Origin: Candidatus Hermodarchaeota archaeon
GTDB lineage: Archaea > Asgardarchaeota > Hermodarchaeia > Hermodarchaeales > Hermodarchaeaceae
Direction of reading: 5' to 3'
Length of the DNA: 11,238 nucleotides
NCBI GenBank assembly: GCA_016840065.1
Contig: JAEOTB010000016.1
Span: forward strand, 1-11,238
Numbering within the stretch: the stretch's first letter is position 1; every line of letters begins with the position of its first letter. The translations under genes were made by a program, and so were the position numbers. The notes beneath the pieces are model-generated. The model saw only the letters and a list, made by a program, of their open reading frames with translations. It had not been told where the DNA came from and did not search any database. This document shows positions 5,144 to 10,097 of this stretch, one piece after another.

Positions 5144-5635
5144 CTACTTTGAGTGGGATTTAGCCCGCCACAACAAGAAAAGAATAACACAGAAGACAAT
5201 CACGATTATGGCAATGATACATAACCAGATGAAATCTATTGGTATCATCCAGCCTCCTTGAGTTTGGCTATCATACCAGTAGTAGCCCAGAGAGGTGCCG
5301 CTGCTATAGAGGGTGATTTCGAACCCCGCGCTGAGGAATTCTTGAGTTGTGTTCTCACCGCTTTCCAAATATATAATCAAAGGGTCTTGGAACTCTCTTG
5401 TGAGGTTCACTTGAAGATAGTCTGTAGTTTCATTACAAGCGACGAAGAGGGTGAAATTAATGGAAGTATCCAGGATATAGAAATAATCTATAATGGTCAG
5501 CGTCTCATCGGAGAGTGTGTAGGGTGCTCTGTAGGACCATCCATTGGGGAATGGTTGTTCTAGATTTGTATACCCGGCTGCCCCAGTACCTACTATTCCA
5601 CTTAGAATAAGTGAACCAATAAAGAGCAAGCCCAA
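5144..5635 (-). CDS. Small type-I membrane/surface protein (signal peptide, ~100-aa beta-rich ectodomain, C-terminal TM and basic tail); true start may be ATT5656
   Basis: Hydrophobic N-terminus ending GTGAA, sequons NFT/NET/NLT/NTT, TM IWLCIIAIIVIVFCVILFLL followed by WRAKSHSK. Confidence 0.8.
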   Translation of the reverse strand: MGLLFIGSLILSGIVGTGAAGYTNLEQPFPNGWSYRAPYTLSDETLTIIDYFYILDTSINFTLFVACNETTDYLQVNLTREFQDPLIIYLESGENTTQEFLSAGFEITLYSSGTSLGYYWYDSQTQGGWMIPIDFIWLCIIAIIVIVFCVILFLLWRAKSHSK

Positions 5636-5811: not shown

Positions 5812-7536
5812 CTAATAGAACGGATGTCGCCACACTTCTAGTTGTAACTCGTACGCACTCCCATGGGAATCACAAGTACTCATTAGCCACTCGGTGAAAT
5901 ACCCTTCTTGATTATAAGACTTTGATCCTTGTTGTGTTGTGGAGATACCTAAGCCATAGGCGGTTCTGGTACCATACCAATGGGGACTTTCCTCGATGTC
6001 ATAGAATGGAGCTGGTGTTGCTGTAAGCCAATAGAGCTCTTTTTCCGTGAAGGATAACATGTAATCAACAATGATATCCTCACTATCGAACATATCTCGG
6101 ATGTCATTAATGGCACCCATAACTGCAGATGCCAGACCCAGAACACCTCCCGCGACTCCACCAGTGACGATGTAGGATAGTGCGGTAAGCACTATCTCCA
6201 ATACATCTAGGAGGGTATCTAGCCAACCAGGTAACTCATCGACTTCAAGTCCAACGTAATAAAGAACTACTTCACCAGTAGGGTCAATCCATAATGGCGG
6301 ATGAAGGCGTGGAGACCCTGTGCTGCGAACAACACCTTCTTGAAAAGGCGCACCATCAAAGTGCTGATTCCTCGCCACTACTAACTCCGTTAAATCAGAT
6401 GAATCCTTAGAAGCATAGGTAAAGGTGGAGTAGAGTGAAACTTCATCATACTCTTCGTCCGTGGCCCGATCACACCCCATAAAGGAGAGTCTGAATTGAT
6501 ACAGCTGATTTTTCCATGTTGAAGCCGGAATGATAACTCGAAAGACTGGACATAACCAGGTTTCTCGTTGACCAATATCTGGGTGTTCGCTAGGCGGGTT
6601 ATTTCTTATCGAAAAAGCATATTGACCAGGTTCTAGGTACGGTAGTGAAAACGTCGCGTTGTCACGTTGTTGATTCCATTCGAGGTCCTCTCTTTGATGC
6701 CCAAAAATGAACGCCTCGGTTCGATGAACCTGCGTCCAAGTGCGTCCCTCAATCTTGTATATTATTACATCAGCAAAGATGTCATAGAAATTCATTCCAG
6801 TAAGTTTGATGACCTCATTTGCACTGAAAGTGGGTAGCGGAATGAAACGAGGGACTTCTAGACCACCCCTTACTTGAAATATCGAAAAAGGTGAGGGGTC
6901 TCTCTGAGGGGTTGTAACGTTGAATATAAACGGTGTATACACGTATGGATTAACAACTACTGGTCGGGACGACGGTTCAGGAATACCATTTATTTCGGGT
7001 GGTGGTGTTGGCGTAAATTCCTCAGTGAGGTTAAAGGCTAGACCTGGACGTTCAAGTTTAAAGTCACTGAACGCGATGTTGTTCTGGTATAGTTGTACTC
7101 GTTTTGCTACCAAGTACGCAGCAAAGTCATTAGTGATATTATCTAAATCAATTATACTCGAGAGCGGCAAATCGAAATAGTCCGGATGGAAGAGTGGTTC
7201 GGCATCATCCATGTATTGGTGGTACCGTTGGAGTAACCCCTGAATTTCTCCAATTACTGCAGGCGTAGCATTGGTCATCGCCTCCCCAACAAGCTCGTCG
7301 AAATAATCTTCATCGTATCCGTTGAGATAGCGTTCAATATAGTGGAGGATAAAAGGGGTCACAGGATCAGGTATTGGGTCATTATCCACTCTACGGGCTA
7401 TCTTTTCTTCGAAGCTGCGTGGTATCTCCTGCCTGAAAAGTGGAAAGAGAAATGGAAGTACAAAGAACCAGATGAGTATAATGCAAATTAAAATTATCGC
7501 GATAATCCCAATGACTGTTTTCCGTTTCAAAATCAT
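5812..7536 (-). CDS. N-terminally membrane-anchored multidomain protein, ~574 aa, unknown function (helical region, Pro linker, IPT/Ig-like domain, acidic beta domain with inserted hydrophobic hairpin)
   Basis: Long ORF. ATG7536 is preceded by AGGAG, which overlaps the upstream TAA (7547-7541); the ORF track start 7566 lies inside the upstream gene. N-terminus is MILKRK followed by a ~25-residue hydrophobic anchor. Domain calls are by eye. Confidence 0.85.
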   Translation of the reverse strand: MILKRKTVIGIIAIILICIILIWFFVLPFLFPLFRQEIPRSFEEKIARRVDNDPIPDPVTPFILHYIERYLNGYDEDYFDELVGEAMTNATPAVIGEIQGLLQRYHQYMDDAEPLFHPDYFDLPLSSIIDLDNITNDFAAYLVAKRVQLYQNNIAFSDFKLERPGLAFNLTEEFTPTPPPEINGIPEPSSRPVVVNPYVYTPFIFNVTTPQRDPSPFSIFQVRGGLEVPRFIPLPTFSANEVIKLTGMNFYDIFADVIIYKIEGRTWTQVHRTEAFIFGHQREDLEWNQQRDNATFSLPYLEPGQYAFSIRNNPPSEHPDIGQRETWLCPVFRVIIPASTWKNQLYQFRLSFMGCDRATDEEYDEVSLYSTFTYASKDSSDLTELVVARNQHFDGAPFQEGVVRSTGSPRLHPPLWIDPTGEVVLYYVGLEVDELPGWLDTLLDVLEIVLTALSYIVTGGVAGGVLGLASAVMGAINDIRDMFDSEDIIVDYMLSFTEKELYWLTATPAPFYDIEESPHWYGTRTAYGLGISTTQQGSKSYNQEGYFTEWLMSTCDSHGSAYELQLEVWRHPFY

Positions 7537-7544
7537 GCATCTCC

Positions 7545-10004
7545 TTATTTCCTTCTGCGTTTCCATATCAGAATAAGCACAATCGCTACGACGATTATGA
7601 TAGCTACTACAACTATTATCAAAATCAATGTGAGATCTGGAGGTACAATGAACTCTGTGTAAGTGATGGTGACGCCGGTAATGACAGCTGTGTTGTAGTC
7701 ATTTACGCTAGACAGAACGACGCACCAACGTAGGTCGCTTCCGGTGTGGTTGATGGTGAGGGGTGTTCCGGGGGTTATCGGTTCCCAGTTGAGTCCTCCG
7801 TCTCCAGAAATATACCAGGTTAGGGCAGTGCCAGATGGTGTTTGCCCTGTGTAGGTGAGTGTAGCAGTGTCAATCGGGTTGGTGGTGGTATCCACAGCTA
7901 GTGATTGGGCTACACAGGTAGTGATGAATGTATCCGCGGCACTACGCAGGAATCGAAAGATGAGAAGTGAGTCGCGGTTCGCGACATAAGCGTAATCACC
8001 GTGGATGGAAAGGCGAAGAGCGGCCATCCCTGCGTCAGTATAATTGGCTAGTTGTTGAATATGGGTGGGGTATTCAGCTGATAGGAGGTAGATTCCGCCT
8101 TGACGTTCAGTCGCTAGTATGTAGTCTCCAAAGATGGCTACATCATAAGTTCTGTTGTTTCCTGGCGGGTCATAGGAATCTAGCCAGGTGGAGATGCTCC
8201 ATGGATCAGTAACGTTTACTAAGTAGGTGCCAAAGCTACCATCAGCGAGGGCACAAAAGTCCCCCTTAACGTCAACGCCCTCTAAATACGTTAATTCCAG
8301 ATGGCTTGTGAGTTTTAGGTTGCTAAGGTCAGTAGCGTCGTAGACGTATAGGCCCCGGTCAGTGAATGTGGAAAAATCATTCGCAGTACAATATATGGAG
8401 TGTCCTTGTTTGTGAACTGCTGTGTAGTTATACCCGTGACCGACTATATCAATGTCGACGTTGATGTTAAAGGGGTTTGAGATGTTAACGAGGATTAATC
8501 CGTAGGTTCCATCAGCCACGCAGGCGACATCCCCGTCTACGCAGAGCCCATAGCCTTCCGAGAAGTGGCGGCGGGAGCGAAAGATGGGATTAGCAGGGTC
8601 TGAGACATCGACAGCCCAAAGTCCTCGACTCGCACTCACCGAGGAGGTGTCTAGTACAAAACAATAGGGGCCCTGTGCATCGATGGCGATGTAATTCACG
8701 GTTGTGGCGTGGCTATATTGGGTGATAAGTGTAGGATTCGCGGGATCGTTCACGTCGAGTGCTAGTAATCCATCAGCACCCGCTGCGACGAAAGCCGTAT
8801 CGCCTTGGACAACAACGTCCCATGCCTCATAGGTGCTGTAACTTCCAACCAAAGGCAAATCGGTGGCGACCATTCCAACTCTGTAGATTTGAATGTCGTC
8901 AGCTGTTCCGATGACGATGTGTTCACCAAAGAGCGCCGCATCATACGCAGTAATCCCGCTAATGGCATCCACATAGATTACATTTGTAGGATTTGAGACA
9001 TCGAGAATTTGGATTCCACCGGTGAGGTCTGCGACGAAAAGGGTATGCCCCTGTAGCGCAAGCCGTTGCGCATTACCTGGTGTGTTATAACTGCCGAGAA
9101 TAGTGGGCGTTGCGGTATCACTGACATCGACTATCTGGACACCACTCGGACCATCCGCGACGTAGGCGATGGTTCCATCGACGAGGACATCAGTAGCGTT
9201 CCCTGGAGTATTGACACTGCCCAGAGATGTAACCGACGAGGGGTTCGATACATTATAGATTGAAAGCCCATTCGTCCCTTCAGCGAGGAAAGCGAGTTGA
9301 CCCTGCACCTCCAATCCAAGGAATTCAGAGAGTGCCACTCCGCCAACCCCAGCAAGTTGGCTTGGGTCTTCAATATCGATGATAGCTAAATCATTAGTGG
9401 TGCTGCCGAAGACGGAGACATAGAGGAAATGTCCCTGTATTTCAAAATCTGTGATTTTACCGTTACCTCCAGGTAGTATTACATCGAGACCAGTAATTTG
9501 ATACGGATTGCTTATATTGTATGCTCCAATCCAGGGTGTTCCGTCAGAATCACCTACGAACCCCACATCGCCCTCCACTTCTACTGATAACAGATAATCT
9601 GCAGGAGATATCGTATCGAGTGGATCTATAATATTGACGTCGGAGATGTTAAAAATCCGAAAGGAATCTAGACCGACCGTTGGGTCATAGAGCACGGCGT
9701 ATGCTTTCCGACCTTGGACATCTAGGGATCGGACAGGGTAAGGTGTTGTATAGTTGGCGGTTTTCGTTATGTAGTAGTATCGGGGGTTACTGATTGCACC
9801 ATTGCCCCATCCTTCGGTTGTGGTTGCTAAGCTGTCTTGAAAAGTAGAAGTTGTGAAGTCCTCAGTGTAGGTTCCAGTGGCGCGGAACGGGGAGCCAGAG
9901 GCTAGTCCAGAAGAAGATGGCAACACGGTGATGAATAGAATCCACAACAGGAGTGAAATAGTAAGAAGTTGGAGCCGACGGTACTTTGGATGAGTAGAAC
10001 TCAT
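7545..10004 (-). CDS. LVIVD-repeat beta-propeller cell-surface protein, ~819 aa, with signal peptide and C-terminal TM anchor
   Basis: 14 repeats of ~41-49 aa such as DVLVDGTIAYVADGPSGVQIVDVSD. Ends PPD-LTLILIIVVVAIIIVVAIVLILIW-KRRRK. GGAGG (10018-10014) abuts ATG10013, so ATG10004 (9-nt spacer) is the preferred start. Confidence 0.92.
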   Translation of the reverse strand: MSSTHPKYRRLQLLTISLLLWILFITVLPSSSGLASGSPFRATGTYTEDFTTSTFQDSLATTTEGWGNGAISNPRYYYITKTANYTTPYPVRSLDVQGRKAYAVLYDPTVGLDSFRIFNISDVNIIDPLDTISPADYLLSVEVEGDVGFVGDSDGTPWIGAYNISNPYQITGLDVILPGGNGKITDFEIQGHFLYVSVFGSTTNDLAIIDIEDPSQLAGVGGVALSEFLGLEVQGQLAFLAEGTNGLSIYNVSNPSSVTSLGSVNTPGNATDVLVDGTIAYVADGPSGVQIVDVSDTATPTILGSYNTPGNAQRLALQGHTLFVADLTGGIQILDVSNPTNVIYVDAISGITAYDAALFGEHIVIGTADDIQIYRVGMVATDLPLVGSYSTYEAWDVVVQGDTAFVAAGADGLLALDVNDPANPTLITQYSHATTVNYIAIDAQGPYCFVLDTSSVSASRGLWAVDVSDPANPIFRSRRHFSEGYGLCVDGDVACVADGTYGLILVNISNPFNINVDIDIVGHGYNYTAVHKQGHSIYCTANDFSTFTDRGLYVYDATDLSNLKLTSHLELTYLEGVDVKGDFCALADGSFGTYLVNVTDPWSISTWLDSYDPPGNNRTYDVAIFGDYILATERQGGIYLLSAEYPTHIQQLANYTDAGMAALRLSIHGDYAYVANRDSLLIFRFLRSAADTFITTCVAQSLAVDTTTNPIDTATLTYTGQTPSGTALTWYISGDGGLNWEPITPGTPLTINHTGSDLRWCVVLSSVNDYNTAVITGVTITYTEFIVPPDLTLILIIVVVAIIIVVAIVLILIWKRRRK

Positions 10005-10097
10005 GATATCCATCCTCCGAAATAGATACCAGAAAGGTGATGTCGCAGCGACTAACCTATTCTAGTAGAATCTGCCAGCAAGGATGTGTCGAGGTGG

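What the first reader, a model, noticed from the sequence alone, without database searches (positions are those of the whole stretch)
5812..7536. Membrane-tethered protein with a C2-like acidic beta domain carrying a Gly-rich hydrophobic helical hairpin: candidate pore-former, fusogen or membrane-bridging protein
Seen, N to C: TM anchor; helical acidic region; Pro linker PTPPPEINGIPEPSSRP (~7012-6960); IPT/TIG-like pattern VIKLTGMNF...FSLPYLEPGQYAFSIRN (~6825-6600); beta strand plus acidic loop QFRLSFMGCDRATDEEYDEVSLY (~6498-6430); GLEVDE; hairpin WLDTLLDVLEIVLTALSYIVTGGVAGGVLGLASAVMGAINDIRD (~6225-6100); SEDII; terminal strand GSAYELQLEVW. Established: C2 domains dock on membranes through Asp-rich Ca2+ loops, and hydrophobic helical hairpins are the inserting elements of alpha pore-forming toxins. 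Inference: a stalk-displayed, possibly Ca2+-dependent module that inserts into a second membrane. This is the strongest novelty candidate in the window.
Basis: inference. Interest (0 to 1): 0.7.

Follow-up and report, generated by a model that had tools for sequence, protein, structure and literature searches.

The report
Rare Asgard surface protein, hydrophobic hairpin
This is a real gene for a membrane-tethered surface protein of an Asgard archaeon, one of about six known relatives, whose last domain carries a conserved greasy two-helix hairpin that probably dips into a membrane; whether it attacks or fuses another cell's membrane is untested.

Summary
ORF 5812-7536(-) (574 aa; 584 from an upstream ATG) encodes an N-terminal membrane anchor, a helical domain, a Pro-rich linker, a beta-sandwich, and a C-terminal beta domain interrupted by a ~45-residue Gly-rich helix-turn-helix.

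It has no Pfam, NCBIfam, PHROG or PDB sequence match. An exhaustive search of 1.84 billion cluster representatives found six relatives (24-33% identity). One is named Candidatus Thorarchaeota. Profiles matched no other genome among 400 of the same phylum.

The hairpin sits at the same place in every member, between the most conserved motifs (ESDxG ... GDDxIxFTEDELYYLT). Its sequence is as free as the membrane anchor's, and its hydrophobicity runs from transmembrane-like to merely amphipathic.

In three of five loci with context the gene abuts a large exported repeat protein (LVIVD propeller or NosD beta-helix).

Best reading: a lipid-embedded wedge on a surface module, probably in the cell's own membrane. 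Pore-forming or fusion activity is neither supported nor excluded. The scan had noted this gene only on this same window.

The parts
5812..7536 (-). Gene of the family founder (574 aa; 584 aa if read from the ATG at 7566, numbering used below)
   Evidence: ORF list and translation; GGAG 4 nt before the ATG at 7536; homologues P0004-P0009
7432..7518 (-). N-terminal signal-anchor helix, residues 17-45, preceded by KRK (N-in, rest outside)
   Evidence: Kyte-Doolittle up to 3.4; Hessa-type dG about -7; present in all full-length members
7072..7419 (-). Conserved helical domain, residues 50-165 (motifs EKxxxxVxNxPIPNP, HYxxRY, NYK...RPIIPxxYxDL)
   Evidence: Alignments A1/A4; helices in the model, pLDDT 50-76; no PDB sequence match
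6832..7071 (-). Pro-rich, poorly conserved linker, residues 166-245
   Evidence: Translation; pLDDT 22-50 and no secondary structure; 23.6% pairwise identity
6532..6831 (-). IPT/TIG-type (E-set) beta-sandwich, residues 246-345 (PGxxxxLxGxNFYD ... LPxLExGxYA)
5815..6519 (-). C-terminal beta domain, residues 350-584, with invariant Y356 C365 D374 E375 D443 G470 E508 H529 R580; possibly C2-like
6088..6225 (-). Gly-rich hydrophobic helix-turn-helix, residues 448-493, inserted between motifs ESDxG and GDDxIxFTEDELYYLT
7545..10013 (-). Upstream gene, 8 nt away on the same strand: LVIVD beta-propeller surface protein with signal peptide and C-terminal membrane anchor
   Evidence: Pfam LVIVD 4.1e-44; translation; the same pairing in L007
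5144..5635 (-). Downstream gene, 176 nt away on the same strand: 163-aa orphan with N-terminal hydrophobic segment, NxS/T sequons and C-terminal membrane anchor
   Evidence: Translation; no family match

Best explanation
The gene encodes a type-II-anchored (N-in, C-out) cell-surface protein of an Asgard archaeon.

A helical domain and a Pro-rich linker carry an IPT/TIG sandwich and a C-terminal beta-sandwich. One loop of that sandwich is expanded into a ~45-residue Gly/Ala-rich helical hairpin, framed by invariant acidic motifs.

I read the hairpin as a lipid-embedded wedge that pins the C-terminal sandwich onto a bilayer. The bilayer is most probably the cell's own membrane, entered from outside or laterally from the Sec channel. 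The protein would then be a membrane-proximal partner of the large exported repeat proteins (LVIVD propeller, NosD beta-helix) encoded next to it.

Shown: the gene, the family, the architecture, the IPT/TIG fold, the conserved position and hydrophobic character of the hairpin, and the neighbourhood. Inferred: membrane insertion, which membrane, and partnership with the neighbours.
For: - **Real conserved family.** Six relatives in 1.84 billion representatives share the architecture.
- **Hairpin conserved in place and length, not in sequence.** Pairwise identity is 20.6%, like the anchor helix at 21.4%. The post-hairpin part is at 37.1%. That is the pattern of a lipid-facing segment.
- **An invariant Gly sits at the turn.** There are no charges in the turn, and acidic residues lie at both bases.
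- **Some members are hydrophobic enough for translocon integration.** Hessa-type dG is about -2.6 in P0005 and about 0 in P0004 and P0006.
- **Neighbours.** The gene lies on the same strand, 0-12 nt from an exported, C-terminally anchored repeat protein in three of five loci with context: window, L007 and L011.
- **No competing fold.** No enzyme, toxin or fusogen fold was found.
Against: - The hairpin of this very protein is only marginally hydrophobic (+1.65). Those of P0007 and P0008 are amphipathic, with no window below +3.5. A constitutive bilayer-spanning hairpin therefore cannot hold for the whole family.
- The hydrophobic core ranges from about 15 to 42 residues.
- The other LVIVD paralogues in this genome have no such neighbour, and two family loci have no repeat-protein neighbour. 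Partnership is therefore not obligate.
- The structural model is weak: pLDDT 50 overall and 35-44 in the hairpin.
- No experiment exists.
Confidence: 0.4

Rival explanations
1. The hairpin is kept shielded on the stalk-displayed C2-like sandwich and inserts into a second membrane (partner cell, prey or vesicle), acting as pore-former, fusogen or membrane bridge, possibly triggered by Ca2+.
For: - The hairpin of this protein and of P0007/P0008 is too weakly hydrophobic for routine translocon integration.
- Helix 1 carries an acidic stripe (D450, D454, E457) with hydrophobic moment 0.38-0.54 across members.
- From my own knowledge: helix 2 is Gly/Ala-rich, like viral fusion peptides and the colicin or diphtheria-toxin hairpins.
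- The ~80-residue linker gives reach.
- Invariant acidic motifs flank the insertion, and there are weak C2 fold matches.
Against: - No fold or sequence likeness to any pore-former or fusogen in PDB or BFVD.
- No heptad-repeat or all-alpha shielding bundle, and the anchor is N-terminal.
- The most hydrophobic members (P0005) would probably integrate into their own membrane.
- The family is far too rare to be a general Asgard function.
Confidence: 0.2
2. The hairpin never enters lipid. It is a hydrophobic protein-protein surface, for example the core of a homo-oligomeric helical bundle or the contact with the neighbouring repeat protein in a surface assembly.
For: - Amphipathic character in P0007/P0008.
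- Small-xxx-small (GxxxG-like) faces in helix 2 of several members, read from the alignment.
- Frequent adjacency to large surface proteins.
Against: - Protein interfaces are usually better conserved than the 20.6% identity seen here.
- P0005's 42 near-uncharged residues look like a membrane segment.
Confidence: 0.2
3. The C-terminal domain is a metal-binding or catalytic module that uses the invariant Cys365, His529 and acidic residues, and the hairpin merely holds it at the membrane.
For: A lone invariant Cys and His, plus D374, E375, D443 and E508, among only 15 invariant positions.
Against: No match to any enzyme family or fold. Only seven sequences are available, so invariance is weak evidence.
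Confidence: 0.07

Closest known systems
C2 domains (Pfam PF00168; e.g. OsGAP1 C2, PDB 4rj9)
   Same: - Predicted beta-sandwich of about eight strands.
- Conserved acidic loop motifs.
- By my own reading (inference), 'xIxCxDETNPE..DEIF' and 'IESDxG...GDDxI' resemble C2 loop 1 and loop 3. That would put the hairpin in the membrane-docking loop.
   Different: - No HMM match.
- It has a 45-residue helical insertion unknown in C2 domains.
- It is extracellular in an archaeon.
- The Pfam C2 model gave no credible match in 400 genomes of the phylum.
- Ca2+ binding is untested.
IPT/TIG (E-set) domains of plexins, Met, EBF, NFAT and CGTase domain D
   Different: No Pfam TIG match; 10-16% identity only.
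Hydrophobic helical hairpins of alpha pore-formers (colicin pore domain, diphtheria toxin T domain, Bcl-2 family)
   Same: A ~40-residue Gly/Ala-rich helix-turn-helix with an uncharged turn and acidic bases. The comparison rests on my own knowledge.
   Different: Those hairpins are buried in all-alpha bundles of soluble proteins. Here the host is a beta-sandwich on a membrane-tethered protein. No sequence or fold match.
Viral class I fusion peptides and archaeal fusexin Fsx1 (PMC9259645)
   Same: A Gly/Ala-rich hydrophobic element on the ectodomain of a membrane-anchored protein, in an archaeal setting.
   Different: - No class I, II or III fold match in PDB or BFVD.
- No heptad repeats.
- The anchor is N-terminal rather than C-terminal.
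- The element is internal and 45 residues long.
Archaeal LVIVD and NosD-type surface repeat proteins (neighbours, not relatives)
   Same: Same envelope compartment and the same operon-like units.
   Different: Unrelated in sequence. They are anchored by a C-terminal helix, while this family is anchored by an N-terminal one.

Membership tests
C2 domain (PF00168) | Match to the family HMM above its cut-off | tested here: not met
   No C2 hit for any of 7 members even at E<=1. The PDB profile search at E<=10 gives only MICU2 noise.
C2 domain (PF00168) | Eight-stranded antiparallel beta-sandwich of C2 topology | tested here: inconclusive
C2 domain (PF00168) | Cluster of Asp/Glu in loops 1 and 3 binding Ca2+ | not testable with these tools
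   Invariant D374, E375, D443 and E508 exist. Their geometry could not be read, and no coordinates are available.
IPT/TIG (PF01833) | E-set immunoglobulin-like fold | tested here: met
IPT/TIG (PF01833) | Match to the family HMM | tested here: not met
   No Pfam hit.
Alpha-helical pore-forming toxins (colicin/ClyA/diphtheria T type) | Hydrophobic helical hairpin | tested here: met
   H449-468/H475-493; hydropathy.
Alpha-helical pore-forming toxins (colicin/ClyA/diphtheria T type) | Hairpin shielded in an all-alpha bundle of a soluble, secreted protein | tested here: not met
   The host domain is predicted all-beta, and the protein has an uncleaved-looking 29-residue N-terminal anchor.
Viral-type fusogens / fusexins | Class I, II or III ectodomain fold with C-terminal anchor | tested here: inconclusive
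   No such match in PDB or BFVD, but the model is weak. The anchor is N-terminal.
Constitutive polytopic membrane protein (three transmembrane helices) | Each hairpin arm hydrophobic and long enough to span the bilayer in all members | tested here: not met
   P0001 best window +1.65; P0007 and P0008 have none below +3.5. The hydrophobic core ranges from 15 to 42 residues.

The most novel reading that the evidence does not exclude
An Asgard archaeon displays, on a flexible stalk, a C2-like sandwich whose membrane-docking loop has grown into a fusion-peptide-like Gly-rich helical hairpin. The hairpin inserts into the membrane of another cell (a syntrophic partner or competitor), bridging, permeabilising or fusing membranes. 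This would be a new structural class of membrane-active surface protein.
Probability: 0.15. Interest if true: 0.85.

Novelty: new variant of a known kind. Interest (0 to 1): 0.42.

Why it matters
Asgard archaea live in close contact with partner cells, and proteins that act on a neighbour's membrane bear on models of how the eukaryotic cell arose. This gene gives a concrete, small and testable candidate: a 235-residue domain with a 45-residue hairpin.

The family is extremely rare. It has about six members and was found with these profiles in only one of 400 sampled genomes of the phylum. It is therefore a lineage-specific envelope invention, not a general Asgard trait.

Tried and rejected
**Searches that found no relative or family**
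- The word-indexed homologue search found only the protein itself, with the single sequence and with the alignment. The candidate cap was probably swamped by hydrophobic words.
- Scans of genome contigs and viral contigs found no relative.
- The metagenome scan returned only a second copy of P0004.
- Profile searches of 400 same-phylum genomes found only the own genome. There was one chance-level hit at E 0.008.
- NCBIfam and PHROGs gave nothing.
- PDB profile searches with the C-terminal and N-terminal alignments gave only scattered chance hits.

**Structure and fold searches**
- The single-sequence AlphaFold2 model was useless, at pLDDT 35.
- Foldseek against PDB and BFVD gave nothing at E<=0.001.
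- The homo-oligomer test with three copies of residues 340-584 returned no answer (ipSAE 0.00, controls not run). This counts neither for nor against oligomerisation.

**C2 comparison left out**
- A profile-profile comparison with C2 domains was planned but not run, because no C2 sequences could be obtained by reference.
- The Pfam C2 model hit nothing real in the phylum. Its one hit lies antisense inside a histidine-kinase gene.

**Readings rejected**
- Horizontal-transfer signal: GC is 0.443 against 0.469 for the genome, the 16th percentile, which is unremarkable.
- Archaeal type IV pilin signal: the Pfam hints are E 0.14-0.32, and there is no consistent cleavage motif across members.

Full report
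**The gene**

The minus-strand ORF 5812..7566 translates without stops to 584 residues. The ATG at 7536 is the more likely start. It lies 8 nt after the TAA of the upstream gene and has GGAG 4 nt upstream. It also gives the 574-residue form held in the protein collection. I number from the longer form.

Hydropathy finds only two hydrophobic stretches:
- Residues 17-45, Kyte-Doolittle up to 3.4, preceded by KRK.
- Residues 448-489, Kyte-Doolittle up to 1.9.

**Organism**

The assembly is 2.59 Mb in 131 contigs and 84% complete. It carries an ESCRT-II EAP30 gene (89.7 bits) and an actin-family gene (113 bits). One homologue of the target is named Candidatus Thorarchaeota by NCBI. Another sits near a Ras-family GTPase. 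Earlier notes of this scan call the genome Hermodarchaeia; I checked only the Asgard assignment.

**Family**

No sequence library recognises the protein:
- Pfam, NCBIfam and PHROGs give nothing for it or its relatives.
- Neither the single sequence nor the profiles match any PDB sequence.

The exhaustive phmmer search of 1.84 billion representatives found six relatives besides itself, at E 2.5e-38 to 2e-4 and 29-33% identity over the matched stretches. Four are full-length (566-644 aa). Two are pieces of one gene broken in low-coverage assemblies.

Profiles of the family matched no other genome among 400 of the phylum, including three congeners and fifteen confamilial genomes, most of them 72-91% complete. 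The family was not found with these queries in genome contigs or viral contigs either.

**Architecture**

Alignments A1-A4 show shared blocks in a fixed order:
- A signal anchor.
- A helical domain with EKxxxxVxNxPIPNP, HYxxRY and NYK..RPIIPxxYxDL.
- A variable Pro-rich linker.
- PGxxxxLxGxNFYD ... LPxLExGxYA.
- YxxxxxxIxCxDETNPE..DEIF.
- IESDxG.
- The hydrophobic segment.
- GDDxIxFTEDELYYLT.
- SPH.
- GFxEWRxY.
- ExSxY.

Fifteen positions of the C-terminal domain are invariant, among them C365, D374, E375, D443, G470 (the hairpin turn), E508 and H529.

**Structure**

- Without an alignment AlphaFold2 failed, at pLDDT 35.
- With eight rows it gave pLDDT 50 and pTM 0.48.
- That model has helices over 52-161, a sandwich over 252-321, and about eight strands over 354-582. 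The strands are interrupted by helices 449-468 and 475-493.
- Foldseek found nothing at E<=0.001 in PDB or BFVD.

So 'IPT/TIG' is supported and 'C2-like' is a lead only. My reading that the two conserved acidic motifs mirror C2 loops 1 and 3 is inference. A profile comparison with C2 could not be run for lack of referenced C2 sequences.

**The hairpin**

It is present in all members at the same alignment position and with similar length. It is also the least conserved segment:

| Segment | Mean pairwise identity |
|---|---|
| Hairpin | 20.6% |
| Anchor helix | 21.4% |
| Post-hairpin part | 37.1% |

The turn is Gly-rich and uncharged in every member, and both bases are acidic.

Hydrophobicity varies widely.

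| Member | Best 19-residue Kyte-Doolittle | Hessa-type dG of the best window |
|---|---|---|
| P0005 | 2.78 | about -2.6 |
| P0004 | 2.19 | about 0 |
| P0006 | 2.00 | about 0 |
| P0001 | 1.88 | +1.65 |
| P0007 | 1.26 | none below +3.5 |
| P0008 | 1.86 | none below +3.5 |

In P0007 and P0008 the hydrophobic moment is 0.4-0.5. The N-terminal half of helix 1 is amphipathic throughout the family; in this protein D450, D454 and E457 lie on one face.

This pattern fits an element selected for hydrophobic character, not for a specific contact. It does not fit a uniform bilayer-spanning pair of helices.

**Neighbourhood**

- In the window the gene follows an 822-residue LVIVD propeller protein by 8 nt. 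That protein has a signal peptide and a C-terminal anchor.
- A 163-residue orphan with a C-terminal anchor follows after 176 nt.
- In the Thorarchaeota contig L007 the homologue is followed after 12 nt by an LVIVD+PKD protein, and a NosD-type beta-helix gene lies divergently upstream.
- In L011 the homologue abuts a NosD beta-helix protein with a signal peptide and a C-terminal anchor.
- L008 and L013 show no such neighbour.
- The own genome has at least four further LVIVD paralogues that lack a family member nearby.

The association is therefore recurrent but not obligate.

**Interpretation**

The most economical reading is a tethered surface module whose C-terminal sandwich is fixed to a bilayer by a hydrophobic helical wedge. 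I place about 0.4 on the cell's own membrane. There the protein would act with the co-encoded envelope proteins.

The rival readings are:
- About 0.2 on a protein-protein role for the hairpin.
- A small share on a metal or catalytic site built from the invariant Cys and His.

The oligomer test gave no answer. Composition gives no sign of recent transfer. I searched the literature for Asgard fusogens, for C2 domains in Asgard archaea, and for Thorarchaeota together with LVIVD. No listed title or abstract concerned such a family.

**Verdict**

The domain calls are partly supported. The mechanism remains open. This is a genuine orphan family of moderate interest.

Noticed in passing
window 5144-5635 (-): A 163-aa orphan downstream of the target. 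It has an N-terminal hydrophobic segment, four NxS/T sequons and a C-terminal membrane anchor with a basic tail. No family match. It may belong to the same surface unit.
   Followed up: partly
G000 contigs C77 681-3230, C110 390-2828 and 3065-5560, C25 31963-33351, C101 1-2654: At least five further LVIVD propeller genes in the genome. Four share the signal peptide and the '...LLYFLW[FY][RK]K' C-terminal anchor of the window's copy. None is next to a relative of the target.
   Followed up: partly
P0001 residues C365 and H529 (window ~6472-6474 and ~5980-5982): A lone invariant Cys and an invariant His in an extracellular domain, together with invariant D374, E375, D443 and E508. This could be a metal site rather than a Ca2+/lipid site.
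   Followed up: no
L012 1702-2765, L009 26-1336, L013 202-1272: One more family member is split into pieces by a frameshift or stop in low-coverage (2-3x) ENA assemblies. Gene callers therefore list it as 151-, 331- and 356-aa fragments.
   Followed up: yes
L011 4557-5081: A Ras-family small GTPase gene three genes downstream of the P0004 homologue, with TPR proteins on both sides. TPR or HEAT repeat genes also flank the family gene in the window, L002 and L013.
   Followed up: no
L016 1501-1665 (G108 C49): The only Pfam C2 hit above cut-off in 400 genomes of the phylum lies antisense inside a histidine-kinase ORF and contains stops. It is a false positive.
   Followed up: yes
No signal peptides were looked for.
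   Followed up: no
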